DNA of 64,000 bases. Source: Escherichia coli (GTDB lineage Bacteria; Pseudomonadota; Gammaproteobacteria; Enterobacterales; Enterobacteriaceae). Below the pieces are notes generated by a model. That model had not been told where the DNA came from and searched no databases. It saw only the letters and a list, made by a program, of their open reading frames with translations. Both the position numbers and the translations under genes were made by a program. Position 1 is the stretch's first letter. The number at the start of each line of letters is the position of its first letter. Location of the stretch: assembly GCF_050920415.1 (NCBI RefSeq), contig NZ_CP169309.1, one strand, 5' to 3'. Of this stretch, positions 1 through 38,888 are shown piece after piece.

Positions 1-387
<387 letters not shown>

Positions 388-1034: not shown

Positions 1035-1036
1035 CG

Positions 1037-1774: not shown

Positions 1775-1819
1775 TCCCAATTTCTGGCGGTATACTGCGA
1801 CACAATTCCACCTTGAGTA

Positions 1820-2317: not shown

Positions 2318-2570
2318 TCCGCGAAACGCCGCGTTTTAGCTGTTACCCGGCTGACGCGGCTCTCTCCTGCCCTTTTCCCTGCTCCTGTACGGTTTTCCCC
2401 CTGTTACACGGGAAGCGACCGTAATCAAAAAAGTCTGTTTATAAACTAATTCCTAACAACATCGCATTTTTTTGACACTAGAATTGCAGCAATATGGCGA
2501 CGCCATTACATTGTGCTTCTCAAAAAGCTTAAACGTTGGCTAAACGGCCCGGTTTAGTGAGGATCGCCCG

Positions 2571-4862
2571 TTGTCAGAACTACTCTCTTTCGCCCTTTTT
2601 CTCGCCTCTGTGCTCATTTACGCATGGAAAGCGGGACGTAATACCTGGTGGTTTGCAGCCACATTAACGGTGCTGGGGCTATTTGTCGTTTTAAATATCA
2701 CCCTGTTTGCCAGCGACTATTTTACTGGTGATGGTATTAACGACGCGGTTCTCTATACCTTAACCAACAGCCTGACCGGTGCTGGCGTCAGCAAATACAT
2801 TCTTCCGGGTATCGGCATTGTGCTGGGGCTGACGGCGGTGTTCGGTGCTCTGGGCTGGATCCTGCGCCGTCGTCGTCATCATCCGCACCATTTTGGTTAC
2901 AGCCTGCTGGCACTCTTACTGGCGCTGGGTTCAGTGGATGCCAGCCCGGCATTTCGTCAGATAACGGAACTGGTGAAATCCCAGTCACGCGACGGCGACC
3001 CGGACTTTGCGGCTTATTATAAAGAGCCGTCGAAAACTATCCCTGACCCGAAACTCAACCTGGTTTATATCTACGGCGAAAGTCTCGAGCGAACCTATTT
3101 TGATAACGAAGCTTTCCCGGATCTCACGCCTGAACTGGGCGCGTTGAAAAATGAAGGCCTGGATTTCAGCCACACGCAGCAGCTGCCAGGAACGGATTAC
3201 ACGATTGCGGGCATGGTGGCTTCTCAGTGCGGCATACCGCTGTTTGCCCCCTTTGAAGGCAACGCCTCCGCTTCTGTTTCCAGCTTCTTCCCACAGAACA
3301 TCTGCCTGGGCGATATCCTGAAGAACTCGGGTTATCAGAACTATTTCGTGCAGGGCGCGAATCTGCGTTTTGCCGGTAAAGATGTGTTCCTGAAGTCGCA
3401 CGGCTTCGACCATTTATATGGCTCAGAAGAGCTGAAAAGCGTGGTGGCAGACCCACACTATCGCAACGACTGGGGATTCTACGACGATACCGTGCTGGAT
3501 GAAGCGTGGAAAAAGTTTGAAGAGCTTTCCCGCTCTGGCCAGCGATTCTCACTGTTTACCCTGACGGTCGATACCCATCACCCGGATGGTTTTATCTCGC
3601 GCACCTGTAACCGCAAAAAATATGATTTTGACGGTAAGCCAAATCAGTCATTCAGTGCGGTAAGTTGCAGCCAGGAGAACATCGCAACGTTTATCAACAA
3701 AATCAAAGCATCACCGTGGTTTAAGGATACCGTTATCGTCGTCTCGTCTGACCATTTAGCGATGAACAACACGGCGTGGAAATACCTCAATAAGCAAGAT
3801 CGCAATAATCTGTTTTTCGTCATTCGTGGCGACAAGCCGCAGCAAGAAACGCTGGCGGTGAAGCGTAATACGATGGATAACGGCGCGACGGTGTTGGACA
3901 TTCTCGGTGGCGATAACTATCTCGGACTTGGTCGTAGCAGTTTATCCGGGCAGTCAATGTCGGAAATCTTCCTCAATATCAAAGAGAAAACGTTGGCGTG
4001 GAAGCCGGATATCATCCGCCTGTGGAAATTCCCTAAAGAGATGAAAGAGTTCACCATCGACCAGCAGAAAAACATGATTGCCTTCTCAGGTAGCCATTTC
4101 CGTTTGCCGCTGCTGTTGCGGGTTTCAGACAAACGCGTGGAACCGCTGCCGGAAAGTGAATACTCAGCACCGCTGCGTTTCCAGTTGGCCGATTTTGCTC
4201 CACGCGACAATTTCGTCTGGGTTGACCGTTGCTATAAGATGGCACAACTCTGGGCTCCGGAACTGGCACTTTCCACCGACTGGTGTGTCTCGCAAGGGCA
4301 GCTTGGCGGTCAGCAAATTGTCCAGCATGTTGATAAAACAACATGGAAGGGCAAAACGGCATTTAAAGATACGGTCATCGACATGGCGCGTTACAAAGGC
4401 AATGTCGATACGCTGAAGATTGTTGATAACGATATTCGCTACAAAGCCGACAGCTTCATTTTTAACGTCGCCGGTGCGCCGGAAGAGGTGAAACAATTTA
4501 GTGGGATTTCCCGTCCGGAGTCGTGGGGCCGCTGGTCCAACGCGCAGTTGGGCGATGAAGTCAAAATTGAGTACAAGCATCCGCTGCCGAAGAAATTTGA
4601 CCTGGTGATTACCGCCAAAGCATACGGCAATAACGCCAGCCGTCCTATTCCGGTACGCGTAGGCAATGATGAACAAACCCTTGTGCTGGGCAATGAAGTA
4701 ACCACCACCACGCTGCATTTCGATAACCCAACCGATGCTGACACGCTGGTGATTGTGCCACCTGAACCCGTCTCAACCAACGAAGGGAATATCCTCGGAC
4801 ACTCGCCGCGTAAGCTTGGTATCGGCATGGTGGAAATTAAAGTGGTGGAACGTGAAGGGTAA
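2571..4862 (+). CDS. opgB: phosphoglycerol transferase I (osmoregulated periplasmic glucan biosynthesis)
   Basis: 763 aa ORF with a TTG start, N-terminal transmembrane segments and a sulfatase-like domain; recognised as OpgB/MdoB. Confidence 0.92.
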
Positions 4863-4876
4863 TTCCTGACTGATTT

Positions 4877-4901
4877 GTAGGTCGCATAAGGTGCGACCTA
4901 C
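4877..4901. terminator. perfect hairpin (GTAGGTCGCA-loop-TGCGACCTAC), REP-like, between convergent opgB and lgoD
   Basis: Inverted repeat read directly; it lies 15 bp after the opgB stop. Confidence 0.4.
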
Positions 4902-4996
4902 ACACCTTCTCCGGCACACAACACATTATTAAGAAACAAAAAAAACAGCGCCCAACACTTCCCCGGACGCTGCATGGCAACTTTAATAATCTCGCC

Positions 4997-6022
4997 TTAT
5001 AAGAAAGTAATTACACCCTTAATCAACTCACGATTGTTAATCACATCGCGCTCATAGGTTTCTGCCAGCGTGGCGAACGGATAGCGATGGGTTAACATCA
5101 TGTCGGCAGTGATTTTTCCTTCCGCCATCAGTCGACCGACTTTAGCGAAATCTTCCGGCGTGGCGTTGCGGCTGCCCATCATCGTCGTTTCTTTTTTATG
5201 GAATTCCGGATCGGAGAACTGCAACTCACCTTTAAACAGACCGACAAATACCACCGTGCCGCCGTGACGAATCAGATTTACGGTGTTATTCATCGCATGT
5301 TGATTACCTGTCGCGTCGATCACTTTCTGCGCCAGCGAACCACCAAACTGCGCCCGCAGCTGCGCGTCAAAATCTTCGGCTGACGGGTCCAGCACGGGCA
5401 ACTCCAGACGCGTTGCCACATGTTCTCGGCGTGCCGGACTGGTATCCGCCACCACCACCTGTGCGCCATCAGCTTTAGCGATTGCCGCCGCGCCCAGACC
5501 AATTGGCCCCGCCCCGACCACCAGCACCTGCTCGCCGGGAGCAATAGCCGCACGACGCACCGCATGAGCGCTAATAGCGAAAGGTTCAATCAATGCTGCC
5601 GCCTGCGGGTCAATACCGTCTGCGGGCAAAATGTTCGCCACCGGCACGCTCAAATACTCACTAAAACCACCATCCTGATGCACACCAATAACTGAAATTT
5701 TTTCACAGCAATTGGTGCGACCGCTTTTACATGCCGGGCATTGCTGACAGGCAACATAAGGGATCACCGCAACTTGCTGACCATTTTTAAGATCAGCAAT
5801 ATTTTTACCCAGCCCAACAATCTCCCCACATATTTCATGGCCTAAAACGCGTGGATAACTAAAAAATGGTTGATTTCCACCCCAGGCATGAATATCGGTA
5901 CCGCAAATCCCGACAGACTTAATTTTTATTAATACTTCATTGTCACCCGGAATAGGTATCTCGCGTTGTTTCCAGACTAATTCTTTCGGCTGCTGGCAAA
6001 TTAAAACATTCATCGTAGACAT
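4997..6022 (-). CDS. lgoD: L-galactonate 5-dehydrogenase (Zn-dependent alcohol dehydrogenase family)
   Basis: The translation (MSTMNVLICQQPKELVWKQ...GHEICGEIV...) shows a Zn-ADH signature and a GxGxxG Rossmann motif; start set at the internal Met matching recalled LgoD/YjjN. Confidence 0.9.
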   Translation of the reverse strand: MSTMNVLICQQPKELVWKQREIPIPGDNEVLIKIKSVGICGTDIHAWGGNQPFFSYPRVLGHEICGEIVGLGKNIADLKNGQQVAVIPYVACQQCPACKSGRTNCCEKISVIGVHQDGGFSEYLSVPVANILPADGIDPQAAALIEPFAISAHAVRRAAIAPGEQVLVVGAGPIGLGAAAIAKADGAQVVVADTSPARREHVATRLELPVLDPSAEDFDAQLRAQFGGSLAQKVIDATGNQHAMNNTVNLIRHGGTVVFVGLFKGELQFSDPEFHKKETTMMGSRNATPEDFAKVGRLMAEGKITADMMLTHRYPFATLAETYERDVINNRELIKGVITFL

Positions 6023-6160
6023 GATTCGGCTCTCCATTTTTTGTTGCCTTAGATATCAATGAAAATGAAAAATGGCAGCGGAACGGAAAATCTGTTTTGT
6101 GAAAACACACGCATAAAAATGTTTTAAATCGGGTTTTAATGGACTCACAAGGAGGAAAAT

Positions 6161-7075
6161 ATGAGTCGCTCACAAAATTTACGCCACAATGTGATTAACC
6201 AGGTCATTGATGATATGGCGCGGGGTCACATCCCTTCCCCACTTCCATCGCAAAGTGCGCTGGCGGAAATGTACAACATCAGCCGCACCACAGTGCGTCA
6301 TATTCTCAGCCACTTACGCGAATGCGGCGTCTTGACGCAGGTTGGAAACGACTATGTTATTGCGCGTAAACCTGACCATGATGACGGTTTCGCCTGTACT
6401 ACCGCTTCAATGAGTGAACAAAACAAAGTGTTTGAGCAGGCTTTTTTCACGATGATAAACCAGCGTCAGTTACGCCCTGGGGAAACTTTTTCTGAACTGC
6501 AACTGGCGCGGGCCGCGGGTGTCAGCCCGGTTGTAGTAAGAGAATATCTTTTAAAATTCGGCCGTTATAATCTTATTCAAAGCGAAAAGCGCGGCCAGTG
6601 GAGCATGAAGCAATTCGATCAATCCTACGCCGAGCAGCTGTTTGAGCTACGCGAAATGCTCGAAACTCATTCACTTCAGCACTTTCTCAACCTGCCTGAT
6701 CATGATCCCCGCTGGCTGCAGGCGAAAACCATGCTCGAACGTCATCGGCTACTGCGTGACAACATCGGCAATAGCTTTCGCATGTTCTCGCAACTTGACA
6801 GAGATTTTCACTCCTTACTGCTTTCAGCTGCCGACAATATCTTTTTTGATCAATCGCTTGAGATCATCTCAGTCATCTTTCATTTTCACTATCAATGGGA
6901 CGAAAGCGATCTTAAACAGCGCAATATCATTGCCGTCGATGAGCATATGACCATTCTCAGCGCTCTGATTTGCCGCAGTGACCTGGATGCCACCCTTGCG
7001 CTCCGTAACCATTTGAATTCAGCTAAACAATCAATGATTCGATCCATTAATGAGAACACGCGTTATGCTCATTAA
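6161..7075 (+). CDS. lgoR: GntR-family regulator with FCD domain (L-galactonate operon regulator)
   Basis: 304 aa ORF with an N-terminal GntR helix-turn-helix; divergent from lgoD as in K-12. Confidence 0.88.
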   Translation: MSRSQNLRHNVINQVIDDMARGHIPSPLPSQSALAEMYNISRTTVRHILSHLRECGVLTQVGNDYVIARKPDHDDGFACTTASMSEQNKVFEQAFFTMINQRQLRPGETFSELQLARAAGVSPVVVREYLLKFGRYNLIQSEKRGQWSMKQFDQSYAEQLFELREMLETHSLQHFLNLPDHDPRWLQAKTMLERHRLLRDNIGNSFRMFSQLDRDFHSLLLSAADNIFFDQSLEIISVIFHFHYQWDESDLKQRNIIAVDEHMTILSALICRSDLDATLALRNHLNSAKQSMIRSINENTRYAH

Positions 7076-7289
7076 GTACGGATTAAAAACAGCAAACTAT
7101 TAGCGGGTGCACGGTTTTATCAAAAGATAAATACCGGAAAATTCCCGCTTACCTATGCTCACAATCAGTCGACTAAAAATGTTTTTGTGAGCGGTAGTAA
7201 AGTCCTAAAACTTTTACCTGCCGTTAATGTCAACCTTGCGTAATGCACAATTACGTAAACAATTAAAATTATAAATACAGGAGTCCGGC

Positions 7290-8651
7290 GTGGAAAAAGA
7301 AAATATCACCCTCGATCCGCGTTCTTCATTTACTCCATCTTCGTCGGCAGATATTCCCGTGCCACCAGATGGATTAGTTCAACGCAGTACCCGAATTAAA
7401 CGCATTCAAACCACCGCCATGTTGTTATTATTTTTTGCGGCGGTAATCAATTATCTCGACCGCAGTTCACTGTCGGTAGCAAATTTAACGATTCGTGAAG
7501 AATTGGGATTAAGTGCCACCGAAATCGGCGCTTTGCTCTCCGTGTTTTCACTCGCTTACGGGATTGCGCAACTTCCTTGCGGCCCACTATTGGATCGTAA
7601 AGGCCCGCGCCTGATGCTGGGACTGGGGATGTTCTTCTGGTCACTGTTCCAGGCAATGTCTGGCATGGTGCACAGCTTTACGCAGTTCGTGTTGGTGCGT
7701 ATAGGTATGGGGATTGGTGAAGCGCCGATGAACCCATGCGGTGTAAAAGTCATTAACGACTGGTTCAACATCAAAGAGCGCGGACGCCCGATGGGCTTCT
7801 TCAACGCAGCTTCTACCATTGGCGTTGCCGTAAGCCCACCGATTCTGGCGGCGATGATGCTGGTGATGGGCTGGCGCGGGATGTTTATTACCATTGGTGT
7901 ACTGGGGATTTTTCTCGCCATCGGTTGGTATATGCTCTATCGCAACCGCGAGCACGTTGAACTGACTGCCGTTGAACAAGCCTATCTCAATGCCGGTAGC
8001 GTCAATGCCCGCCGTGATCCACTCAGTTTTGCTGAATGGCGCAGCCTGTTCCGTAACCGCACAATGTGGGGAATGATGCTCGGATTCAGTGGCATCAATT
8101 ACACTGCGTGGCTGTATCTGGCCTGGCTGCCAGGTTACCTGCAAACAGCCTATAACCTGGATTTAAAAAGCACCGGGTTGATGGCGGCTATCCCTTTCCT
8201 GTTTGGGGCTGCCGGGATGCTGGTCAATGGTTACGTTACCGACTGGCTGGTCAAAGGAGGAATGGCTCCGATTAAAAGCCGTAAGATCTGCATTATTGCC
8301 GGGATGTTCTGTTCTGCCGCCTTTACGCTGGTCGTACCGCAAGCGACAACATCCATGACAGCGGTTCTGCTGATTGGCATGGCACTGTTCTGTATTCACT
8401 TTGCCGGAACATCCTGCTGGGGCTTGATCCACGTCGCAGTTGCTTCTCGCATGACTGCGTCGGTGGGCAGTATCCAAAACTTTGCCAGCTTCATCTGCGC
8501 CTCTTTTGCGCCGATCATTACTGGTTTTATTGTTGATACCACCCACTCATTCCGTCTGGCGCTAATCATCTGCGGTTGCGTCACCGCGGCGGGTGCACTG
8601 GCATACATCTTCCTGGTCCGTCAGCCGATCAACGACCCACGTAAAGATTAA
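7290..8651 (+). CDS. lgoT: MFS transporter (L-galactonate:H+ symporter)
   Basis: 453 aa ORF with a GTG start and 12-TM MFS-like hydropathy; recognised as YjjL/LgoT. Confidence 0.88.
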   Translation: MEKENITLDPRSSFTPSSSADIPVPPDGLVQRSTRIKRIQTTAMLLLFFAAVINYLDRSSLSVANLTIREELGLSATEIGALLSVFSLAYGIAQLPCGPLLDRKGPRLMLGLGMFFWSLFQAMSGMVHSFTQFVLVRIGMGIGEAPMNPCGVKVINDWFNIKERGRPMGFFNAASTIGVAVSPPILAAMMLVMGWRGMFITIGVLGIFLAIGWYMLYRNREHVELTAVEQAYLNAGSVNARRDPLSFAEWRSLFRNRTMWGMMLGFSGINYTAWLYLAWLPGYLQTAYNLDLKSTGLMAAIPFLFGAAGMLVNGYVTDWLVKGGMAPIKSRKICIIAGMFCSAAFTLVVPQATTSMTAVLLIGMALFCIHFAGTSCWGLIHVAVASRMTASVGSIQNFASFICASFAPIITGFIVDTTHSFRLALIICGCVTAAGALAYIFLVRQPINDPRKD

Positions 8652-8658
8652 TTTCCCT

Positions 8659-8692
8659 ATGCCCGATAACATTTTGCTTATCGGGCATTTTT
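8659..8692 (+). terminator. rho-independent terminator downstream of lgoT
   Basis: 11 bp stem ATGCCCGATAA / TTATCGGGCAT followed by TTTT, read directly. Confidence 0.6.
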
Positions 8693-8699
8693 ATGGCGA

Positions 8700-10364
8700 T
8701 TAAAACGTTTCCCAGTTCTCTCCGCTATCTGCCACTGCCACTTTGCGCGGCGCAGATGGCGTCACAGTTTTTACTACTGCCGATGCTTCGCGCTGGCGTT
8801 GCTGCTCTTGCTGAATCCGGAACACTGCCACAGCTTCGGTCAGGCGACTGGCCTGCTCCTCCAGCGCGGCGGCGGCGGCGGCAGATTCTTCCACCAGCGC
8901 GGCGTTTTGTTGGGTTACTCGGTCCATCTCAGCTACTGCTAAGCCAACCTGATCGATACCACGGCTCTGCTCATCAGAAGCCGAAGCAATTTCGCCCATA
9001 ATGTCCGTCACGCGGGTCACAGCGCTGACAATCTCTGCCATGGTTTCCCCGGCGCTTTCGACCAGCGTAGAGCCAACATCCACTTTGCCCACCGAGTCTT
9101 CAATCAGGCTTTTAATTTCGCGAGCCGCCTGAGCGCTACGCTGGGCCAGATTACGCACTTCTCCCGCAACCACCGCAAAACCGCGCCCTTGCTCACCTGC
9201 ACGCGCTGCTTCAACCGCCGCGTTCAAAGCCAGAATATTGGTCTGGAAGGCAATGCCGTCAATTACGCTGATAATATCGGCGATTTTCTGCGAGCTGGTG
9301 GAGATATCGCGCATGGTCTGCACCACGTTATCCACCACTTTGCCGCCACGTTGCGCCGTTTCGGAAGCACTTAACGCCAGATGGCTAGCCTGACGCGCAT
9401 TCTCGGCGTTCTGTTTCACCGTTGCGGTCAGTTGTTCCATGCTGGCTGCCGTCTCTTCCAGCGAAGCGGCCTGTTGCTCGGTGCGCGAAGAGAGATCGTT
9501 ATTGCCGGTGGCGATTTCGCTGGCACCGCTATAGATAGCATTGGCCCCGTTGCGCACATCACCGACGGTACGCATCAGCTCCCCCTGCATATGGCGCAAA
9601 CTCTCTGCCAGTTGCCCCATCTCATTAGAACCATCCACCTCAATCGGTTTCACCAGATCGCCACCTGCAATATGACGAATGCTGTCAATCAGGCGATTCA
9701 TTGGCGCTACCAACGAGGCTTTAATACCGAACCAGACGGCGAAGATGACCGCCAGTACGACGATCATCACGCCCACCAGAATCCACATCGCCTGGCTGTA
9801 GGAGGCATTATTATCGCTGACGGCGATATCATAGAGCCGATCGTTTTGCTCCATGTAAGCCACATACTGCTTCTCGAAACCGTCCTGATATCCCTGAGTC
9901 GGCTGATCAAAGAATTCGTTGATTTTGCCTGCACCTAACAGTTGGATCAGTTCCGCCAGCGCATTGTGATAAATATCGTAATTACGTTTGATCTCTGCCG
10001 CTGCGGCGGTGCTCTGACGCGGGTCACGCGGCAATGCTTCGTAATCCGCCCAGTTTTTTTCCGCCTGTTTCAGCGAAATACTGGCACTCTGCATCAGCTC
10101 GGCAACGGTTGAACCGCTACCAATATTGTTCTGATCCATCATGTAGCGGATCCCCGCGCGGTTGAGGGTGTTACGCGTCTGCAACAACGCGACCCAGCTG
10201 CCATTCAGCGTGGATTGCTGCTGGCGAATGGTTTGTAAAACAGTGAAATTTTCTTTGTCATTCTTTAAGGCATTAAAGAACAGACCGCCTGATGTCAGTT
10301 GTAAAAGGCCAAAAACGGCCAAAACCAGCAGTAAGCTGGTCACGATCTTGATACGTTTTAACAT
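8700..10364 (-). CDS. tsr: methyl-accepting chemotaxis protein I, serine chemoreceptor
   Basis: The translation from the internal Met ([19 protein letters not shown]...) has the highly conserved MCP signalling domain and a C-terminal NWETF pentapeptide; recognised as Tsr. Confidence 0.95.
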
Positions 10365-28876: not shown

Positions 28877-28951
<75 letters not shown>

Positions 28952-29000
28952 AAATCCCCGGCCCGGACCTTCCGGGCTTTACGCATATCTGGAAGGCAAA

Positions 29001-30204: not shown

Positions 30205-30507
30205 TTATTTTTTATTCTGATCGCGCAGCATCGCTTCACGTAAAATTGCGTTCAGGCGAGTTTGATAGCCTTTACCTGGTCGCTTCAACCATTCCATCAC
30301 ATCAGCATCAATACGCACCGAAGCCTGAGTTTTCAATGGCCGATAAAACTTACCGCGTTCTGCGTTAGACCATTGCTCATCGCTGGAAGGTGGGATATCA
30401 CTGTAATCAATATCTTCGTCGGATTTATTCGCCAGCGCCTTCAGTTCGGCCTCATGCTGCACATCGAGTGAAGAGGAGGTCCCTCGTTTATGTTTAACCA
30501 TGCTCAT
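30205..30507 (-). CDS. BrnA-like antitoxin (DUF4415/COG3514)
   Basis: 100 aa ORF; the C-terminal pattern YQTRLNAILREAML resembles BrnA-family antitoxins; its start overlaps the stop of a BrnT-like remnant. Confidence 0.6.
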   Translation of the reverse strand: MSMVKHKRGTSSSLDVQHEAELKALANKSDEDIDYSDIPPSSDEQWSNAERGKFYRPLKTQASVRIDADVMEWLKRPGKGYQTRLNAILREAMLRDQNKK

Positions 30508-30623
30508 AGCGGCTCCGTTCGTTGTGGCTCATCAAACACTAACACCGCATCTTCAAAGCGGATGCCATGTTTCACCCGATTACTTTTGGCCTTGTTTGCA
30601 TCCCATTCAAACTCCATTGGCAT
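30504..30623 (-). pseudogene. truncated BrnT-like toxin (DUF497) remnant, 39 codons
   Basis: My own translation of the minus strand gives MPMEFEWDANKAKSNRVKHGIRFEDAVLVFDEPQRTEPL*, which matches only the conserved N-terminus (FEWDxxKxxxNxxKHG..F..A..VF.DP) of roughly 90 aa BrnT toxins. Confidence 0.45.
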
Positions 30624-30819: not shown

Positions 30820-31986
30820 GTGAAAAACTACAAAGTTATTACTCCGCTTTTTCCTACCTATGCGCAAGTTAAGGCTATGATGAAAGCCGTCTCAGGCTAT
30901 TCCCTGAAAGCGGTACGCAATATGATTACCGCCATTCACGAGCAAACCGGTACGCCGCAAAAACCCGTTGACTGGTCGGAACCTGACCTGTGGATCAGCG
31001 AACGCTTAACGGGTGAAGATGCCGACATCGCCCGTCGTATTTGGGATACCGATAATCACATATTGAACCCGCGCCACAGCTACGGCTGCTACTTATTTCT
31101 CAACTATCCTCAGTTTGAGCTGATGGAAAGCACGCCAGATGATACCTGGCAGCCCACCTCGCGCGGGCAAAAATTCCTGCAAGATGACGAAAAAACGCTG
31201 CGTTCACTGGACGACCAGGAAGGCATTCTGCAACTGCTTGAGCTGCTGGCTGGCCGGGAAATGTCGCGCCGCGCCGATTTATTGCCGGAATGGCAGGCCT
31301 TTTTGCATCAGCATTCGAAATTCGCGTCAGCAAGTTCAGTGAAAAGCACGCTCTACTCCCGTCTCTATAACCTTATCGACCGTGACATGGTTAACCGTGA
31401 AGGCATGAGCTATCGCATCACCGATACCGGGCGCGCCTGGCTTGGAAAAGCGTTGCCTGCACGAAAAAGCGATCCGCGTAAAGAGCTGTTGGAAGCGGTA
31501 AAACGCTATAACGAACAGCAAAAAGAGCTGCTGCGCGAACAAATCAGCACGATGAACCCGTACAAATTTGAGCAACTGGTTGGTCAATTACTGGAAGCAA
31601 TGGGCTACGAACAGGTTGAAGTGACCAAAGCCTCAGGCGACAAAGGTGTGGACGTGATTGGTCAGGTGCAGGTCGGCATCACCACTATTACCGAAGTGGT
31701 GCAGGTCAAAAGAATGCTGAACACTATCACTCGCCCGTATATCGACCAGTTGCGTGGGGCGTTGCCTTACCACAAAGCCATTCGCGGTACGCTCATCACC
31801 ACCGGGAAATTTGCGGCGAAATGTGCAGAAGCGGCGCTCTTTCCGGGTGCCGCGCCCATTACGCTTATCGACGGCGATCGTTTACTGGAACTGTTAATCG
31901 AAAATAACGTCGGCATTCGCCGCAGCAATGCAGTGGAATTGCTGGATGTAGATTTGCAGTTGTTTGATGAGCTGGAGATGGATTAA
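30820..31986 (+). CDS. Mrr-family (Mrr_cat, PD-(D/E)xK) restriction endonuclease with extended N-terminal region
   Basis: The C-terminal 150 aa carry an Mrr catalytic-domain pattern (GDKGVDVIG...EVVQVKR...ITTGKF); 388 aa in total; GTG start, exact start uncertain. Confidence 0.72.
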   Translation: MKNYKVITPLFPTYAQVKAMMKAVSGYSLKAVRNMITAIHEQTGTPQKPVDWSEPDLWISERLTGEDADIARRIWDTDNHILNPRHSYGCYLFLNYPQFELMESTPDDTWQPTSRGQKFLQDDEKTLRSLDDQEGILQLLELLAGREMSRRADLLPEWQAFLHQHSKFASASSVKSTLYSRLYNLIDRDMVNREGMSYRITDTGRAWLGKALPARKSDPRKELLEAVKRYNEQQKELLREQISTMNPYKFEQLVGQLLEAMGYEQVEVTKASGDKGVDVIGQVQVGITTITEVVQVKRMLNTITRPYIDQLRGALPYHKAIRGTLITTGKFAAKCAEAALFPGAAPITLIDGDRLLELLIENNVGIRRSNAVELLDVDLQLFDELEMD

Positions 31987-32049
31987 AGGGCGAAATCCGC
32001 CGCCTCAACCATTACAATAGCGACCCAATTTATCTGAACAGAGTTCATC

Positions 32050-33669
32050 ATGGCCAAAGCACCAACTAAAAAAGCCAAAGCAAAAAAAGGCTTTGAAGAA
32101 ACATTATGGGATACCGCAAACCAGCTTCGCGGTAGCGTTGAATCCTCCGAATACAAGCACGTGGTGTTGAGCCTCGTGTTCCTGAAATTCATCAGCGATA
32201 AGTTTGAAGCACGCCGCAAAAAAATGATTGCCGATGGGCAAGCAGACTTCCTTGAGATGGAAGTGTTCTACCAGCAGGACAACATTTTCTACCTGCCGGA
32301 AGAGGCGCGCTGGTCATTTATCAAACAAAATGCCAAACAGGACGATATTGCGGTCCGTATTGACACCGCCCTCTCGACCATTGAGAAACGTAACCCAACG
32401 CTGAAAGGCGCGCTGCCAGACAACTACTTCAGCCGTCAGAATCTGGAAACCAAAAAACTGGCGTCACTGATTGATACCATCGACAACATCGAAACGCTGG
32501 CACACGAAACTGACGTTGAAACGTTATCGAAAGAAGACCTGGTCGGACGCGTTTACGAATACTTCCTCGGTAAGTTTGCCGCAACTGAAGGCAAAGGCGG
32601 TGGTGAGTTCTACACGCCTAAATGTGTGGTTACGCTGTTAACTGAAATGCTCGAACCCTTTCAGGGCAAAATTTATGACCCGTGCTGCGGCTCGGCAGGG
32701 ATGTTCGTGCAGTCGGTGAAGTTTGTCGAGAGCCATCAGGGTAAAAGTCGTGATATCGCGCTGTATGGTCAGGAACTGACAGCCACGACGTATAAACTGG
32801 CAAAAATGAACCTCGCTATTCGCGGTCTTTCAGCTAACCTCGGCGAACGACCGGCAAACACTTTCTTTAGCGACCAGCACCCGGACCTGAAAGCTGACTA
32901 CATTCTGGCGAACCCGCCGTTCAACCTGAAAGACTGGCGCAATGAAGCCGAATTAACCAAAGACCCACGTTTTGCTGGGTATCGTATGCCGCCAACCGGT
33001 AACGCCAACTACGGCTGGATTTTGCATATGCTCTCCAAGCTGTCGGCTAACGGCACAGCAGGTTTTGTACTGGCAAACGGTTCGATGAGTTCTAACACCA
33101 GCGGCGAAGGCGAGATCCGTGCACAGATGATCGAAAATGATCTGATCGACTGCATGATCGCCCTACCTGGACAGTTGTTTTACACCACGCAGATCCCGGT
33201 GTGTTTATGGTTTATGACCAAATCGAAGGCTGCCGACCCGGCCAAAGGTTATCGTGATCGTCAGGGCGAGACGCTGTTTATTGATGCGCGTAACCTCGGC
33301 ACCATGATTAGCCGCACAACTAAAGAGTTAACAGCGGAAGATATTGCCACAATCGCCGATACTTACCATGCCTGGCGCAGCACGCCGGAAGAACTGGCTG
33401 CACGGATTGCGCGTGGTGACAGCAAGCTGGAAAAATATGAAGACCAGGCTGGCTTCTGCAAAGTTGCGACCCTGCAAGACATTAAAGATAACGGCTACGT
33501 TCTGACACCGGGCCGCTATGTAGGTGCAGCCGAGCAGGAAGAGGACGGCGTGGCATTTGAGACCAAAATGCGTGAATTGTCGAAGACGTTGTTTGAGCAG
33601 ATGAAGCAGGCGGAAGAACTGGATCGTGCGATTCGCCAGAATCTGGAGGCGCTGGGTTATGGGGAGTAA
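32050..33669 (+). CDS. hsdM: Type I restriction-modification system N6-adenine DNA methyltransferase subunit
   Basis: 539 aa with an HsdM N-terminal domain, AdoMet motif DPCCGSAGMF and catalytic motif NPPF. Confidence 0.92.
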   Translation: MAKAPTKKAKAKKGFEETLWDTANQLRGSVESSEYKHVVLSLVFLKFISDKFEARRKKMIADGQADFLEMEVFYQQDNIFYLPEEARWSFIKQNAKQDDIAVRIDTALSTIEKRNPTLKGALPDNYFSRQNLETKKLASLIDTIDNIETLAHETDVETLSKEDLVGRVYEYFLGKFAATEGKGGGEFYTPKCVVTLLTEMLEPFQGKIYDPCCGSAGMFVQSVKFVESHQGKSRDIALYGQELTATTYKLAKMNLAIRGLSANLGERPANTFFSDQHPDLKADYILANPPFNLKDWRNEAELTKDPRFAGYRMPPTGNANYGWILHMLSKLSANGTAGFVLANGSMSSNTSGEGEIRAQMIENDLIDCMIALPGQLFYTTQIPVCLWFMTKSKAADPAKGYRDRQGETLFIDARNLGTMISRTTKELTAEDIATIADTYHAWRSTPEELAARIARGDSKLEKYEDQAGFCKVATLQDIKDNGYVLTPGRYVGAAEQEEDGVAFETKMRELSKTLFEQMKQAEELDRAIRQNLEALGYGE

Positions 33670-34975
33670 GTGGGAAACAGTTAGACTTGGTGATTTAACA
33701 AAGTGGTCATCAGGTGGAACACCTAATAAATCGGAGGATTCATATTGGAATGGTACTATTCCGTGGATTAGCGCGTCCTCTATGGAAGGTCATTTATATA
33801 GCGATTCAAAGCTAAAAATAACTGAAGATGGCTTAATAAATGGCTCTCGACTCGCCCCTGCTAATAGCATTCTTCTTTTAGTAAGAGGCAGTATTCTTCA
33901 TCAAAAAATTCAAGTAGGTTTGGCTACAAAGGCTGTTGCATTTAATCAAGATGTAAAATGTCTCATAGTCAATAATGATATGATTGATCCTTGGTATCTT
34001 TTGCTATGGTTTAAAGCAAAAGAACAAGATCTACTAAAAATAGTAGAAAGCACTGGGATAGGCGCAGGGAAGCTTGACACTAAATTATTAATGGATTACC
34101 CAGTTGAAATTCCACCAAAAGAGATTAAAGAATATATCCGTTTTTTGGGGAAAGCGATTTTTGATAAAATAACGCTCAACGAAAATATAAACTATAATTT
34201 GGAAAAAATGTCCCAAACCTTGTTCAAATCCTGGTTTGTGGATTTTGATCCGGTGATTGATAACGCTCTGGATGTCGGAAATCAAATCCCGGAAGCCCTG
34301 CAAGCTCGTGCCGAATTGCGTCAAAAAGTACGTAATAGTGCAGATTTCAAACCACTTCCGACGGAAATCCGCTCGCTTTTCCCAAGTGAATTTGAAGAAA
34401 CGGAGTTAGGTTGGGTACCAAAAGGTTGGGAAATTGGAAAACTTCAAGACTTACTTATTTTACAAAGAGGATTTGATCTTCCTTCTACCCAAAGAAATAT
34501 CGGTTTACACCCAATAATAGCTGCTAGTGGCTATAATGGCACACATGACATCGCAATGGTGAAAGCCCCTGGGATTGTTACTGGCCGCTCTGGTGTATTA
34601 GGTAATGTTTTCCTAATCCTTGAAGACTTCTGGCCTCTGAATACAACGTTGTGGGTAAAAGAGCTAAAACATGCTACACCATGTTACGGATATGAGTTAC
34701 TTAAAATGATAGATTTCTCTTCATTTAATGGCGGTTCAGCTGTTCCAACATTAAACCGTAATCATATTCACAATTTGGATTACTTGCTTCCACCAAGAAA
34801 TTTAATTGAGAAATTTGAGTTATTTTCTATGTCGTTATATAGACAAGTTCACGAATTCAAAAAACAAGCCCAAACCCTAACAGCCCTCCGCGACACCCTG
34901 CTCCCGAAACTCATCTCCGGCGAGCTATCCCTGGAAGATCTTCCGGATCTCAGCACCGATACAGAAGCTGCATAA
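33659..34975 (+). CDS. hsdS: Type I restriction-modification specificity subunit with two target recognition domains
   Basis: The ATG overlaps the hsdM stop by 11 bp; the region is AT-rich; two variable regions are separated by a conserved central segment and followed by a conserved C-terminal region. Confidence 0.88.
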   Translation: MGSKWETVRLGDLTKWSSGGTPNKSEDSYWNGTIPWISASSMEGHLYSDSKLKITEDGLINGSRLAPANSILLLVRGSILHQKIQVGLATKAVAFNQDVKCLIVNNDMIDPWYLLLWFKAKEQDLLKIVESTGIGAGKLDTKLLMDYPVEIPPKEIKEYIRFLGKAIFDKITLNENINYNLEKMSQTLFKSWFVDFDPVIDNALDVGNQIPEALQARAELRQKVRNSADFKPLPTEIRSLFPSEFEETELGWVPKGWEIGKLQDLLILQRGFDLPSTQRNIGLHPIIAASGYNGTHDIAMVKAPGIVTGRSGVLGNVFLILEDFWPLNTTLWVKELKHATPCYGYELLKMIDFSSFNGGSAVPTLNRNHIHNLDYLLPPRNLIEKFELFSMSLYRQVHEFKKQAQTLTALRDTLLPKLISGELSLEDLPDLSTDTEAA

Positions 34976-34983
34976 CGCATTTT

Positions 34984-35003
34984 GCCCCTGTAAAATCAGG
35001 GGC
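34984..35003 (+). terminator. hairpin (GCCCCTG-TAAAAT-CAGGGGC) followed by TTTCT between hsdS and hsdR
   Basis: Read directly in the 94 bp gap; it may be a partial terminator or attenuator separating the hsdMS and hsdR transcription units. Confidence 0.3.
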
Positions 35004-35069
35004 TTTCTGGTAAGGTTTTCTACTGATACGGGAATGCTTACCAGAAATTAGCCAGGGTTGGAGCGCGAT

Positions 35070-38000
35070 ATGAGTCTCTCTTTCAGTGAAGCAAAATTAG
35101 AACAAGCGATCATTGAACTGTTACAGGATCAGGGATATCAACACCTGATCGGCGATAATGTCCCACGTTCAAGTCTCGATCAGGTCATTATCGAAGACGA
35201 TCTCCGTCATTATTTAGCGGCACGCTACCAGCCTGATGGCATTACTGAAGAAGAGATTCAGCGACTGATCAAACAGTTCACCACGCTCCCCGCTTCCGAT
35301 CTTTATGAAAGCAACAAAACATTTTGTCGCTGGCTGGCAAATGGTTTTCTGTTCAAACGCGACGATCGGCAACAAAAAGATCTCTATATTGAATTGCTCG
35401 ACACCCGGCATCTACCTGCCGCACTGCGCCAGATATTTGACGCCGAAGATGTCCCGTTGCAACAGGCGGCGGAACTCCCGCCCTCCTATATTAATCCGCC
35501 GCTTAACCGGATTAAGATTGTTAACCAGCTTAAAATCTCCGGTAAAGATAATCAGACTCGTATTCCTGACGGCATTCTCTATATCAACGGTCTGCCACTG
35601 GTCGTCTTTGAATTTAAAAGTGCGGTGCGCGAGCAGGATGCCAGTATTGGCGATGCCTGGAAGCAGCTCTGTAAACGCTATCGCCGGGATATTCCGCAAC
35701 TGTTTATCTACAACGCGCTCTGCATTATTAGCGATGGCGTAAATAACCGGATGGGCAACCTGTTTGCGCCCTATGAATACTTTTACTCATGGCGCAAAGT
35801 CACCGGTAATGAAAACCGTGAACAGGACGGAATTCCGTCATTGCACTCAATGATTCAGGGGCTGTTTCATCCGGTACGTCTGCTGGATGTGATTAAAAAC
35901 TTTATCTGCTTCCCGGATAAAGCCAGGCACGAAGTAAAAATTTGCTGCCGATATCCGCAGTACTATGCCGCCCGCAAACTCTATTACAGCATCAAGCAAG
36001 CGCGTAAACCTTTCGGTAGCGGTAAAGGCGGCACCTACTTTGGCGCAACGGGCTGTGGCAAAAGTTACACCATGCAATTTTTAACGCGTCTTTTGATGAA
36101 GAGCGTGGAGTTTGCCAGCCCGACCATTGTTTTGATCACCGACCGCACCGATCTGGACGATCAGCTTTCTGCGCAAATGTGCAATGCCAAAAATTACATT
36201 GGCGACGACACCATCGTTCCTGTTACCAGCCGTGAAGATTTGCGTAATCAACTGGCGGGACGCAATAGTGGCGGTGTATTCCTGACAACGATCCATAAAT
36301 TCACCGAAGACACCGAACTCCTTTCTGAACGCAGCAATATCATTTGCATCTCGGACGAAGCACATCGCAGCCAGGTTAACCTCGACCAGAAAGTCATCGT
36401 CGATAAAGAAAGCGGAAAAGTGCGCAAAACTTATGGCTTTGCGAAATACCTGCACGATTCACTGCCAAACGCCACCTATGTTGGCTTTACCGGCACACCG
36501 ATTGACGCGACGCTCGATGTCTTCGGTGAGGTGATCGACAGTTACACCATGACCGAATCCGTTCAGGATGAAATCACTGTACGCATCGTGTACGAAGGCC
36601 GTGCGGCTAAAGTGATCCTGGACTCCAGCAAACTGGAAGAAGTCGAAAAGTATTACGAAGAGTGCGCAAACGCAGGCACCAATGAGTGGCAAATCGACGA
36701 AAGCAAGAAAGCCACGGCTACCATGAATGCGGTTCTGGGTGATGAAGATCGGTTAAAAGCCCTCGCGGAAGATTTTGCTAAACATTATGAAAAACGCGTA
36801 GCCGAAGGTTCCACCGTAAAAGGCAAAGCCATGTTTGTTTGCACCAGCCGTGAAATTGCCTGGGATTTCTACCGCCAGCTTAAAGCTATTCGCCCTGCCT
36901 GGTTTGAAGTGAAGCAAGCCCCCGATGGCGTCGTCCTGACGGAACAGGAGCAGAAAGAGTTACCGCCTTCAGAAATGGTGAAGATGGTCATGACGCGCGG
37001 TAAAGATGACGACGAGGCGCTTTATGATTTACTGGGCACAAAAGAATATCGTAAAGAGCTGGATAAGCAGTTCAAAAACGCTAAATCGAATTTCAAAATT
37101 GCCATTGTCGTTGATATGTGGCTGACCGGTTTCGACGTTCCTGAACTGGATACTATCTATATTGATAAACCCTTACAAAAACATAACCTTATCCAGACCA
37201 TTTCTCGCGTTAACCGTAAACTGGAAGGCAAAAGTAAAGGGTTAGTGGTGGACTATATCGGCATTAAGAGTCAGATGAACCAGGCACTGGCAATGTATTC
37301 CCGCATTGATGCCACCAACTTTGAAGATATTCAGCAATCGGTAATAGAAGTTAAAAACCATCTCGATTTGTTGGGGCAAGTCTTTTACGAATTTGACAGT
37401 CGGGATTATTTTAGTGGTGAGCCGCAAGCGCAATTATCCTGCCTCAACCGCGCGGCGGAATTCGTTCTGAGTACCCAGAAAGTTGAACGTCGTTTTATGG
37501 GACTGGTTAAACGCATGAAAGCCGCCTACGACGTCTGCTGCGGCAGCGAAGCATTATCACAGACAGAACGTGACTATATTCACTATTATCTTGCTGTTCG
37601 TTCAATTGTTTTCAAACTGACGAAAGGTGACGCACCGGATGTTACCCAGATGAATGCACGCGTTCGCGAAATGATTGCAGAAGCGTTAAAAGCTGATGGC
37701 GTAGAAGAGATTTATTTTCTTGGCGATAAAAAAGCGGAATCCATCGATATTTTTGACGAAGATTATCTGGCGCGAATTAACAAGATCAAACTTCCGGCAA
37801 CGAAGATCCAGTTATTACAAAAATTACTGGAAAAAGCAATCAGCGACTTCAAGAAAGTGAACCAGTTGCAAGGGATTAACTTCACCCGCCGCTTCCAGGC
37901 GATTATAGATCGTTATAATGAGCGGCGAGAAGATGATGTACTCAACGGTGAAGAATTCGATACATTCAGTCAGGAAATGACCGATATTATCTATGATATT

Positions 38001-38372
38001 AAAACCGAAATGGGCACCTGGGCCGACTTAGGCATTGATATTGAAGAAAAAGCCTTTTTCGACATTCTTGCTCATATGCGCGATAAATATCAGTTCACCT
38101 ATGACGATGAAAAAATGCTGTCACTGGCAAAAGAGATGAAAAGCGTGGTTGACAACACATCGAAATATCCTGACTGGAGTAAACGCGATGATATTAAAGC
38201 GAAACTGAAAGTTGAACTTATTCTGCTTCTACACAAGCATAAGTTCCCGCCAGTAGCGAATGATGATGTTTATATGGGTGTGCTGGCACAGGCAGAGAAT
38301 TTTAAAGAACATCATATGAGTGCTTTAAATTACTATGAACGCCGGATACACTTTGTTATCCGGCCATTGTGA
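35070..38372 (+). CDS. hsdR: Type I restriction enzyme R subunit (SF2 helicase/translocase plus endonuclease)
   Basis: About 1100 aa with an N-terminal HsdR domain and DEAD-box-like helicase motifs (GTGKS-type Walker A, DEAH-like box); GGAG Shine-Dalgarno before the ATG at 35070. Confidence 0.9.
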   Translation: MSLSFSEAKLEQAIIELLQDQGYQHLIGDNVPRSSLDQVIIEDDLRHYLAARYQPDGITEEEIQRLIKQFTTLPASDLYESNKTFCRWLANGFLFKRDDRQQKDLYIELLDTRHLPAALRQIFDAEDVPLQQAAELPPSYINPPLNRIKIVNQLKISGKDNQTRIPDGILYINGLPLVVFEFKSAVREQDASIGDAWKQLCKRYRRDIPQLFIYNALCIISDGVNNRMGNLFAPYEYFYSWRKVTGNENREQDGIPSLHSMIQGLFHPVRLLDVIKNFICFPDKARHEVKICCRYPQYYAARKLYYSIKQARKPFGSGKGGTYFGATGCGKSYTMQFLTRLLMKSVEFASPTIVLITDRTDLDDQLSAQMCNAKNYIGDDTIVPVTSREDLRNQLAGRNSGGVFLTTIHKFTEDTELLSERSNIICISDEAHRSQVNLDQKVIVDKESGKVRKTYGFAKYLHDSLPNATYVGFTGTPIDATLDVFGEVIDSYTMTESVQDEITVRIVYEGRAAKVILDSSKLEEVEKYYEECANAGTNEWQIDESKKATATMNAVLGDEDRLKALAEDFAKHYEKRVAEGSTVKGKAMFVCTSREIAWDFYRQLKAIRPAWFEVKQAPDGVVLTEQEQKELPPSEMVKMVMTRGKDDDEALYDLLGTKEYRKELDKQFKNAKSNFKIAIVVDMWLTGFDVPELDTIYIDKPLQKHNLIQTISRVNRKLEGKSKGLVVDYIGIKSQMNQALAMYSRIDATNFEDIQQSVIEVKNHLDLLGQVFYEFDSRDYFSGEPQAQLSCLNRAAEFVLSTQKVERRFMGLVKRMKAAYDVCCGSEALSQTERDYIHYYLAVRSIVFKLTKGDAPDVTQMNARVREMIAEALKADGVEEIYFLGDKKAESIDIFDEDYLARINKIKLPATKIQLLQKLLEKAISDFKKVNQLQGINFTRRFQAIIDRYNERREDDVLNGEEFDTFSQEMTDIIYDIKTEMGTWADLGIDIEEKAFFDILAHMRDKYQFTYDDEKMLSLAKEMKSVVDNTSKYPDWSKRDDIKAKLKVELILLLHKHKFPPVANDDVYMGVLAQAENFKEHHMSALNYYERRIHFVIRPL

Positions 38373-38475: not shown

Positions 38476-38552
38476 AGCGCGGTGCGGATGTGCGCCAACA
38501 CACCCGCACCGCTAATCACAATCCCTATTTCTAAGGAATAGTAATCATGACT
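38476..38552 (-). ncRNA. symR: SymR antisense sRNA (type I antitoxin of SymE), approximate placement
   Basis: Placed by recalled K-12 biology (about 77 nt, antisense to the symE 5' UTR and start codon). A 9 bp stem, GCGGTGCGG at 38477-38485 pairing with CCGCACCGC at 38504-38512, is visible in this interval. The ends are not determined from sequence. Confidence 0.3.
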
Positions 38553-38888
38553 GACACGCATTCTATTGCACAACCGTTCGAAGCAGAAGTCTCCCCGGCA
38601 AATAACCGTCAATTAACCGTGAGTTATGCGAGTCGCTACCCGGATTACAGCCGTATTCCCGCCATCACCCTGAAAGGTCAGTGGCTGGAAGCCGCCGGTT
38701 TTGCCACCGGCACGGCGGTAGATGTCAAAGTGATGGAAGGCTGTATTGTCCTCACCGCCCAACCACCCGCCCCCGAAGAGAGCGAACTGATGCAGTCGCT
38801 GCGCCAGGTGTGCAAACTGTCAGCGCGTAAACAGAAGCAGGTGCAGGAGTTTATTGGGGTGATTGCCGGTAAACAGAAAGTCGCCTGA
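38547..38888 (+). CDS. symE: SOS-induced toxin SymE (AbrB-fold endoribonuclease-like)
   Basis: 113 aa ORF ([52 protein letters not shown]...) recognised as SymE/YjiW. Confidence 0.92.

What the first reader, a model, noticed from the sequence alone, without database searches (positions are those of the whole stretch)
32050..38372. Type I R-M system in hsdM-hsdS-hsdR order with an AT-rich specificity gene
All three genes are co-directional with M and S overlapping by 11 bp, and hsdR follows after a 94 bp gap containing a hairpin. This resembles the two-transcription-unit organisation I recall for Type IC systems rather than K-12 EcoKI (R, then M-S). The hsdS body (about 33.7-34.9 kb) is visibly more AT-rich than its neighbours, consistent with target-recognition-domain exchange. 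No gene lies between hsdS and hsdR, so an anticodon-nuclease (prrC-like) insertion is absent.
Basis: partly seen in the sequence, partly recalled or inferred. Interest (0 to 1): 0.5.

Follow-up and report, generated by a model that had tools for sequence, protein, structure and literature searches.

The report
Known Type ID restriction-modification system
This is an ordinary, already catalogued E. coli Type I restriction-modification system of the Type ID family (gene order hsdM-hsdS-hsdR) in the chromosome's well-known immigration control region. Only its DNA-recognition (HsdS) allele is uncommon.

Summary
The window has three co-directional genes: hsdM 32050-33669, hsdS 33659-34975 (11-nt overlap) and hsdR 35070-38372. 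A 94-nt structured spacer precedes hsdR, no prrC-like gene is present, and hsdS is clearly AT-rich (GC 0.39, against 0.51 for hsdM and 0.46 for hsdR).

The family hint is off. The M-S-R order matches Type IC, but the proteins do not: the HsdR match to EcoR124I is limited to two weak stretches (88 bits), and HsdM scores 135 bits. They are also not IA (HsdM 25% identical to EcoKI) or IB (27% to CFT073). HsdM is 99.6% and HsdR 98.2% identical to EcoMII of E. coli EC958. EcoMII methylates AAC(N4)CTTT, and its HsdR is published as 92% identical to StySBLI, the Type ID prototype.

The locus lies in the immigration control region between yjiA and yjiS. A 2025 review reports IA, IB and ID there, and never IC. 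About 16-21% of complete E. coli genomes carry this cassette.

Low GC is general to hsdS genes. Domain exchange is shown instead by mosaic alleles: TRD1 is identical in other strains that carry a different TRD2.

Whether hsdR has its own promoter is untested. Verdict: already known, low interest.

The parts
30820..31986 (+). Mrr-like Type IV restriction endonuclease gene (388 aa). It is co-directional with hsdM and ends 63 nt upstream of it. It is a neighbour that travels with the cassette, not a Type I subunit.
   Evidence: Pfam Mrr_cat 4e-28. PADLOC PDC-S02 2e-206 and mREase_IV 1e-26. 30% identical to K-12 Mrr over the catalytic half. Present in 880 of 5426 complete E. coli genomes. Same position in EC958, PSS-12, strain 746 and Klebsiella. 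Called Mrr (EC958_0079) by Forde 2015.
32013..32018 (+). TACAAT, a -10-like hexamer 31 nt upstream of the hsdM ATG. It is a candidate hsdMS promoter element (inferred).
   Evidence: The block GTTACAATA/ATTACAATA is kept in E. coli ICR copies, in Klebsiella and in the non-ICR copy of NT1W22, whose further upstream sequence is unrelated. The -35 is poor at 3/6. The stricter scan did not report it.
32050..33669 (+). hsdM, N6-adenine DNA methyltransferase subunit (539 aa)
   Evidence: PADLOC MTase_I 6e-192. AdoMet motif DPCCGSAG at residue 210 and catalytic NPPF at residue 288. 99.6% identical to EC958 M.EcoMII. 25% identical to EcoKI HsdM and 27% to CFT073 HsdM.
33659..34975 (+). hsdS, specificity subunit (438 aa). 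Approximate segments: N-terminus plus TRD1 33659-34198, central conserved region 34199-34444, TRD2 34445-34873, C-terminal conserved region 34874-34975.
   Evidence: PADLOC Specificity_I 1e-109. Segment limits come from the five-allele alignment and from which parts match in other genomes. GC by segment is 0.356, 0.439, 0.368 and 0.569. TRD1 is identical to the PSS-12 and NT1W22 alleles while TRD2 differs. Only 1 of 5426 complete genomes carries the whole allele.
34984..35003 (+). Hairpin 1 in the hsdS-hsdR spacer. It is terminator-like, with a poor T tract (TTTCTGG).
   Evidence: Terminator scan: 7 pairs, 6 of them G-C. RNA fold. Stem invariant and loop variable among E. coli, Klebsiella and Salmonella.
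35004..35047 (+). Hairpin 2 in the spacer (11 + 5 pairs), directly abutting hairpin 1
   Evidence: RNA fold of 34970-35075: MFE -41.1 kcal/mol, z -5.1. The spacer is 100% identical in five E. coli loci. It is mostly conserved in Klebsiella and Salmonella, with one stem position broken in Salmonella.
35070..38372 (+). hsdR, restriction/translocase subunit (1100 aa)
   Evidence: NCBIfam hsdR 467 bits. Pfam HSDR_N, SWI2_SNF2, T1R_D3-like and T1RH-like_C. Nuclease motif D...EFK in residues 166-183, aligning with the EcoR124I D..ELK. Walker A GATGCGKS at residue 325 and DEAH at residue 429. 98.2% identical to EC958_0076.
38331..38372 (+). 13-residue C-terminal extension of HsdR (YYERRIHFVIRPL) plus the stop codon
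   Evidence: A 1-nt deletion at the usual TAA stop, seen in alignment with five other loci. Other copies are 1084-1088 aa.

Best explanation
A chromosomal Type I restriction-modification system of the Type ID family (relatives: StySBLI, EcoR9I, KpnAI, EcoMII), occupying the E. coli immigration control region between yjiA and yjiS.

How it works, from established Type I biology:
- HsdS uses two target-recognition domains to read a bipartite DNA sequence.
- M2S methylates one adenine in each half-site of hemimethylated host DNA.
- On fully unmethylated targets, R2M2S uses the HsdR SF2 motor to pull DNA through with ATP hydrolysis. It then cuts far from the site with the PD-(D/E)xK nuclease domain.

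Shown here:
- Gene identities, intact catalytic motifs and family assignment by sequence.
- Location in the ICR and prevalence among complete genomes.
- Mosaic hsdS alleles.
- A conserved, structured hsdS-hsdR spacer.

Inferred:
- Translational coupling of HsdM and HsdS through the 11-nt overlap.
- hsdMS transcription from a promoter using the conserved TACAAT at 32013-32018.
- hsdR expression either by partial read-through of the two hairpins or from an unidentified promoter.
- The recognition sequence of this allele is unknown. TRD1 distantly resembles EcoR124I TRD2 (which reads RTCG), so a CGAY-like first half-site is only a lead.
For: - Subunit identities.
- Motifs intact.
- HsdM is 99.6% and HsdR 98.2% identical to the EC958 ICR system. 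That locus has the same layout, Mrr-like, M, S, 94-nt gap, R, symE.
- Forde et al. 2015 (PMC4659465) describe that system as EcoMII (EC958_0078/0077/0076, with Mrr as EC958_0079), an hsdM-hsdS-hsdR operon. They report its HsdR as 92% identical to StySBLI HsdR. Knock-out abolished AAC(N4)CTTT methylation.
- A review (PMC12707154) states that the ICR carries IA, IB and ID families, with ID in 12% of 9,040 loci and IC never found there.
- IA and IB are excluded directly: HsdM is 25% and 27% identical, and HsdR matches are negligible.
- 1140 of 5426 complete E. coli genomes have a match, 858 of them over at least 80% of the region, almost all chromosomal. The single record in the plasmid collection is an 834-kb replicon.
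- The 90%-identity clusters of HsdM and HsdR include Salmonella, Klebsiella, Citrobacter and Enterobacter.
Against: - No StySBLI, EcoR9I or KpnAI sequence was available, so the link to the prototype rests on a published identity figure for a 98%-identical protein.
- The functional family criteria (subunit complementation, antibody cross-reaction, 6-bp spacing of methylated adenines) were not tested.
- Activity of this particular copy is unproven. HsdR carries an unusual 13-residue C-terminal extension.
- The promoter structure is unknown.
Confidence: 0.9

Rival explanations
1. It is a Type IC system (EcoR124I/EcoDXXI/EcoprrI family), as the M-S-R order and lone hsdR suggested to the first reader.
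For: EcoR124I subunits are the only HsdR hits in the PDB, and EcoR124II HsdS is the best HsdS hit.
Against: - The HsdR match to EcoR124I is 88 bits, confined to residues 144-511 and 654-744.
- HsdM scores 135 bits against EcoR124II M, against 448 bits for an unrelated structural-genomics HsdM.
- Family members are cited as typically sharing over 70% similarity, and different families under 30% (PMC10030836).
- The HsdS similarity to EcoR124II is confined to one TRD, placed in the other half of the protein.
- HsdS has no tandem tetra-amino-acid repeats.
- IC was not found at the ICR in 9,040 loci.
- The system is almost entirely chromosomal.
Confidence: 0.01
2. The genes are Type ID, but this copy is restriction-deficient or silent. 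It might act as a methyltransferase only, for example because of the altered HsdR C-terminus or weak hsdR expression behind the hairpins.
For: - The usual hsdR stop is lost and 13 residues are added.
- No recognisable promoter precedes hsdR, and a terminator-like hairpin lies upstream of it.
- The neighbouring brnT toxin gene is decayed in this strain, so the island is not under uniformly strong purifying selection.
Against: - All three reading frames are intact, with catalytic motifs present.
- The extension lies beyond the last conserved residues of the T1RH-like_C domain, which ends at about residue 1080.
- The same 1100-aa protein is seen on 82 contigs, so it is a stable lineage allele.
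- The spacer is identical in EC958, where the system methylates over 99% of its chromosomal sites.
Confidence: 0.08
3. It represents a new Type I family that merely shares gene order with IC and ID.
For: It shows low identity to the IA, IB and IC representatives that could be compared directly. No Type ID or IE prototype sequence was in hand.
Against: It is near-identical to EcoMII, whose HsdR is published as 92% identical to StySBLI HsdR. The ICR census finds only IA, IB and ID.
Confidence: 0.01

Closest known systems
EcoMII of E. coli ST131 strain EC958 (Type ID; EC958_0078/0077/0076), recognising AAC(N4)CTTT
   Same: HsdM is 99.6% and HsdR 98.2% identical. The 11-nt M/S overlap and the 94-nt spacer are identical. 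The Mrr-like gene upstream, symE downstream and the ICR position are the same.
   Different: HsdS is only 36% identical overall; both TRDs differ, so the recognition sequence must differ. EC958 has an intact brnT, no GmrSD-like gene and a normal 1087-aa HsdR.
StySBLI (Salmonella enterica sv. Blegdam), prototype of Type ID; also EcoR9I and KpnAI
   Same: Same family by transitive sequence evidence: EC958 HsdR is 92% identical to StySBLI HsdR. The hsd locus is chromosomal and allelic with the other ICR families. The 90%-identity clusters of HsdM and HsdR contain Salmonella and Klebsiella proteins. Klebsiella has the same four-gene layout.
   Different: The specificity subunit differs: known ID sites are CGA(N6)TACC, AGCA(N6)TGA and GGCA(N6)TTC.
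EcoR124I / EcoprrI (Type IC)
   Same: Gene order M-S-R and the same overall enzyme architecture. One TRD of EcoR124II HsdS (residues 203-371) resembles TRD1 here, at about 35% identity.
   Different: M and R proteins are only remotely related. There are no tetra-amino-acid repeats in HsdS. The location is the chromosomal ICR rather than a plasmid or the leuX hotspot. There is no prrC between S and R, unlike EcoprrI.
EcoKI (Type IA, E. coli K-12)
   Same: It occupies the same chromosomal slot between yjiA and symE, next to a Type IV enzyme gene. hsdS is AT-rich (0.404) and M/S are translationally overlapped.
   Different: The order is R-M-S with mrr divergent. HsdM is 25% identical, and HsdR similarity is limited to a 219-residue motor segment.

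Membership tests
Type I R-M system (generic) | Three separate subunits: an N6-adenine methyltransferase (HsdM), a specificity subunit with two TRDs (HsdS), and an SF2-motor plus PD-(D/E)xK nuclease (HsdR) | tested here: met
   PADLOC, NCBIfam and Pfam hits for all three. Motifs NPPF, DPCCGSAG, GATGCGKS, DEAH and D..EFK are present.
Type ID (StySBLI family) | High sequence identity of HsdM and HsdR to family members (cited as typically over 70% similarity within a family, under 30% between families) | tested here: met
   99.6% (M) and 98.2% (R) identity to EcoMII. EcoMII HsdR is reported as 92% identical to StySBLI HsdR (PMC4659465). The link to the prototype is indirect. Thresholds are from PMC10030836.
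Type ID (StySBLI family) | Chromosomal hsd locus in the immigration control region (one of the three families, IA, IB and ID, reported there) | tested here: met
   The locus lies between yjiA and yjiS/yjiR. The ICR census lists ID at 12% of loci.
Type ID (StySBLI family) | Methylated adenines of the bipartite target separated by 6 bp | not testable with these tools
   No methylome exists for this allele. The EcoMII site AAC(N4)CTTT fits 6 bp only if the T next to C marks the second methylated position, and the text held does not show that.
Type ID (StySBLI family) | In vivo subunit exchange (complementation) with StySBLI, EcoR9I or KpnAI; antibody cross-reactivity | not testable with these tools
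   These are experimental criteria.
Type IC (EcoR124I family) | High identity of HsdM and HsdR to EcoR124I, EcoDXXI or EcoprrI | tested here: not met
   HsdR scores 88 bits in two partial stretches. HsdM scores 135 bits.
Type IC (EcoR124I family) | Gene order hsdM-hsdS-hsdR | tested here: met
   The order is shared with Type ID (EcoMII), so it does not discriminate.
Type IC (EcoR124I family) | Tandem tetra-amino-acid repeats (TAEL-like) in the central conserved region of HsdS | tested here: not met
   No tandem 4-residue repeat, even allowing one mismatch. The feature is as described in PMC10030836.
Type IC (EcoR124I family) | Plasmid-borne, or at the leuX hotspot, not at the ICR | tested here: not met
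   ICR location. 1246 of 1247 places are on chromosomes. No IC was found in 9,040 ICR loci.
Type IA (EcoKI family) | High identity to EcoKI HsdM and HsdR; order R-M-S | tested here: not met
   HsdM is 25% identical over 396 residues. HsdR is 25% identical over 219 residues only. The order differs.
Type IB (EcoAI family) | High identity to EcoAI-family HsdM and HsdR (the CFT073 system was used as representative); order R-M-S | tested here: not met
   HsdM is 27% identical over 362 residues. HsdR has no significant match. CFT073 is stated to be IB in PMC8287963. Its HsdR is annotated as EcoAI/FtnUII family.
Type IE (KpnBI family) | High identity to KpnBI HsdM and HsdR | not tested
   No KpnBI sequence was available. 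This is made unlikely by the StySBLI link.
prr-type locus (Type IC with anticodon nuclease) | prrC gene inserted between hsdS and hsdR | tested here: not met
   Only 94 non-coding nucleotides separate hsdS and hsdR.

The most novel reading that the evidence does not exclude
The invariant pair of abutting hairpins between hsdS and hsdR (34984-35047) may be a dedicated regulatory element of Type ID systems. It could be a leaky terminator or an RNA-processing site that sets a low HsdR:HsdM ratio, or delays HsdR after the cassette enters a new host. If so, ID systems would control restriction from one hsdM promoter rather than from the separate hsdR promoter known for EcoKI and assumed for IC.
Probability: 0.2. 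Interest if true: 0.3.

Novelty: already known. Interest (0 to 1): 0.1.

Why it matters
It matters little beyond correct annotation. The locus should be labelled Type ID, not IC-like. It is one of the three standard occupants of the E. coli immigration control region.

Two points have modest practical value:
- This HsdS allele (TRD1 shared with other strains, TRD2 rare) has no assigned recognition sequence. Strains carrying it will restrict incoming DNA at an unknown bipartite site, which is relevant for transformation or phage work with such isolates.
- Transcriptional control of hsdR in Type ID systems appears not to have been worked out.

Tried and rejected
- Type IA, IB and IC membership was tested by direct protein comparison with K-12, CFT073 and PDB EcoR124I sequences and rejected.
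- I looked for the primary Type ID and ICR papers (Titheradge 2001, Sibley & Raleigh 2004, Murray 2000). None is held in the library. The StySBLI link therefore comes from Forde 2015.
- Searching papers for the RefSeq protein accessions found nothing.
- The supplement of Forde 2015 lists motif counts but not the methylated position on the second strand. The 6-bp spacing could not be confirmed.
- The consensus promoter scan found fewer sites than shuffles and none in either intergenic gap. A relaxed scan gave only TACAAT before hsdM, plus a TAAAAT that is the loop of hairpin 1 and is not conserved in other genera. I therefore make no claim of a separate hsdR promoter.
- Rfam found no known RNA family in the hsdS-hsdR spacer, only symR downstream.
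- AT-richness as a marker of recent TRD import was rejected as non-specific.
- Covariation analysis of the hairpins was not attempted, because the available sequences are too similar.
- I ran no further search on TRD2 relatives, because it would not change the verdict.


Full report
**1. Observation**

The ORF table shows three co-directional plus-strand ORFs: 32050-33669 (539 aa), 33626-34975 and 35058-38372.
- The sequence shows an ATG at 33659, 11 nt before the hsdM stop.
- It also shows an ATG at 35070, preceded by GGAG, 94 nt after the hsdS stop.
- RefSeq annotation of a 100%-identical region uses the same starts.
- The N-terminus MGSKW is conserved across alleles.

The spacer contains a G+C-rich hairpin at 34984-35003, followed at once by a second hairpin at 35004-35047. 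The 106-nt stretch folds to -41.1 kcal/mol. Shuffles average -26.0, giving z = -5.1.

hsdS has GC 0.392 and GC3 0.319. hsdM has GC 0.509 and GC3 0.58, and hsdR has GC 0.460. The two TRD segments are the lowest, at 0.356 and 0.368. The C-terminal conserved segment is 0.569.

**2. What the genes are**

All three proteins give very strong matches to Type I subunit models. HsdR has the full domain set: HSDR_N, SWI2_SNF2, T1R_D3-like and T1RH-like_C. Catalytic motifs are intact:
- HsdM: DPCCGSAG and NPPF.
- HsdR: nuclease D..EFK (aligned to the EcoR124I D..ELK), Walker A GATGCGKS, and DEAH.

**3. Where it sits**

The 6.3-kb region is 100% identical to E. coli MFDS1022581 (NZ_CP169399.1). The rest of the window differs from that record by a few SNPs and one IS2 insertion.

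The neighbourhood reads as follows:
- btsT, yjiX, yjiA
- brnA, with a decayed brnT
- Mrr-like endonuclease
- hsdM, hsdS, hsdR
- symR/symE
- a GmrSD-like gene
- yjiS, yjiR

This is the immigration control region (ICR), the same slot that holds mrr-hsdRMS-symE-mcrBC in K-12 and a Type IB system in CFT073.

**4. Which family**

Direct comparison excludes three families.
- IA: HsdM is 25% identical to EcoKI, and HsdR matches only a 219-residue motor segment.
- IB: HsdM is 27% identical to CFT073, and HsdR has no significant match.
- IC: the match to EcoR124I HsdR is 88 bits in two partial stretches, and HsdM scores 135 bits. HsdS also lacks the IC tetra-amino-acid repeats.

Positive evidence for Type ID comes from EC958.
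- Its ICR has the same layout, and its proteins are 99.6% (HsdM) and 98.2% (HsdR) identical to those here.
- Forde et al. 2015 named that system EcoMII and described it as an hsdM-hsdS-hsdR operon next to Mrr.
- They reported its HsdR as 92% identical to StySBLI HsdR. Knock-out showed that it methylates AAC(N4)CTTT.
- StySBLI is the Type ID prototype.
- A 2025 review of 9,040 enterobacterial ICR loci found IA (14%), IB (11%) and ID (12%), and no IC.

The system is therefore a Type ID member by sequence and location. The functional family criteria (complementation, serology, 6-bp adenine spacing) could not be tested.

**5. How common it is**

- 1140 of 5426 complete E. coli genomes have a match, and 858 match over at least 80% of the region. 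1246 of 1247 places are chromosomal.
- The plasmid collection holds one match, on an 834-kb replicon.
- The Mrr-like gene is in 880 genomes. It precedes hsdM in Klebsiella as well.
- A copy outside the ICR (strain NT1W22) lacks the Mrr-like gene.
- The 90%-identity clusters hold 2,518 (HsdM) and 5,382 (HsdR) sequences from Escherichia, Salmonella, Klebsiella, Citrobacter and Enterobacter.

**6. The specificity gene**

Other genomes match only the central conserved region (nt 541-786 of the gene) and the 3' end. Just one complete genome, the 100%-identical MFDS1022581 record, has the whole allele.

In a five-allele alignment, TRD1 is identical to the PSS-12 and NT1W22 alleles, whereas TRD2 differs from all of them.

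Low GC is not diagnostic of it, however. hsdS is 0.36-0.40 in all eight systems examined, including IA, IB and the Klebsiella ID copy, whose hsdM is 0.574.

TRD1 resembles TRD2 of EcoR124II HsdS, at roughly 35% identity overall and about 42% over the first 100 residues, by my count of the printed alignment. EcoR124I reads GAA(N6)RTCG. Attributing RTCG to its second TRD, and the rule that a TRD moved to the other half reads the complement, both rest on my own knowledge. Together they make a CGAY-like first half-site a lead, no more.

**7. Expression**

The 11-nt overlap fits the translational coupling described for hsdM-hsdS junctions (PMC3510504); this is inferred here.

Upstream of hsdM, a TACAAT at 32013-32018 is kept even in the non-ICR copy, whose upstream DNA is otherwise unrelated. 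It is therefore a reasonable -10 candidate, although the -35 is poor.

The hsdS-hsdR spacer is identical in five E. coli loci. In Klebsiella and Salmonella the stem of hairpin 1 is invariant while its loop varies. No convincing promoter lies in it. Whether hsdR is read through the hairpins or has its own promoter cannot be decided from sequence.

**8. Verdict**

This is a correctly observed but ordinary feature. It is a member of a known family, at its known locus, already annotated in RefSeq, and experimentally characterised in a near-identical relative. The Type IC resemblance is limited to gene order.

Two things remain open: the recognition sequence of this allele, and the role of the conserved two-hairpin spacer.

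Noticed in passing
window 38331-38372: hsdR has lost its usual TAA stop through a 1-nt deletion and runs 13 codons further, into a hairpin downstream. The protein is 1100 aa, against 1084-1088 aa in other copies. The same 1100-aa protein is on 82 contigs in public data.
   Followed up: yes
window 30205-30623: brnA antitoxin is intact (30205-30507), but the adjacent brnT toxin is reduced to a 102-nt remnant (30522-30623) annotated as a pseudogene. EC958, PSS-12 and strain 746 have an intact 288-nt brnT.
   Followed up: partly
window 30820-31986: A 388-aa Mrr-like endonuclease is co-directional with hsdM, whereas mrr is divergent in K-12. It matches the PADLOC candidate family PDC-S02 end to end. 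It is only 30% identical to K-12 Mrr in the catalytic half, and its roughly 215-residue N-terminal part has no clear Pfam domain. It travels with the Type ID cassette in E. coli and Klebsiella but is absent from a non-ICR copy.
   Followed up: partly
window 38935-41028 (- strand): A single uninterrupted 697-aa ORF matches a GmrSD-like defence protein (PADLOC Orf5 profile 1-542 of 543) and has an extra C-terminal region matching PDC-S18. RefSeq annotates the same DNA as two pieces, one of them a pseudogene, in both this strain's near-identical record and CFT073.
   Followed up: partly
window 38476-38552 (-) and 38547-38888 (+): symR antisense RNA (Rfam 93 bits) overlaps the start of symE directly downstream of hsdR. 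In K-12 the same pair lies downstream of hsdS.
   Followed up: partly
window 57957-59288: A 1.33-kb IS2 copy (TnpA and TnpB models matched above their cut-offs) interrupts the inverse autotransporter gene iatD. It is absent from the otherwise near-identical record NZ_CP169399.1.
   Followed up: partly
window 49300-52000: This is the most AT-rich stretch of the window (400-nt GC minimum 0.29). It coincides with a 685-aa pentapeptide-repeat protein gene (about 49727-51784) between the DUF3343 gene and yjiK. CFT073 has no gene at that position.
   Followed up: no
L006 (E. coli NT1W22) 2801-9347: A second chromosomal context exists for the same Type ID cassette. It sits next to YagK/YfjJ-type island genes, without the Mrr-like gene or symE. 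Similarity to the ICR copies starts only about 40 nt upstream of hsdM.
   Followed up: partly
L008/L009 (Salmonella enterica) 1-9267: An HsdR of the same 90% cluster lies at the Salmonella ICR but is not preceded by a called hsdM/hsdS pair. About 2 kb upstream are a NERD/UvrD-like helicase, a 191-aa half-size S protein and a 417-aa N6_Mtase/Eco57I-type methyltransferase. The region directly upstream holds only unannotated or short ORFs.
   Followed up: no
window 28921-28978: A sub-threshold Rfam match to naRNA4 (46.7 bits, gathering score 59.5) appears on both strands between btsT and yjiX. It is probably a REP-type palindrome.
   Followed up: no
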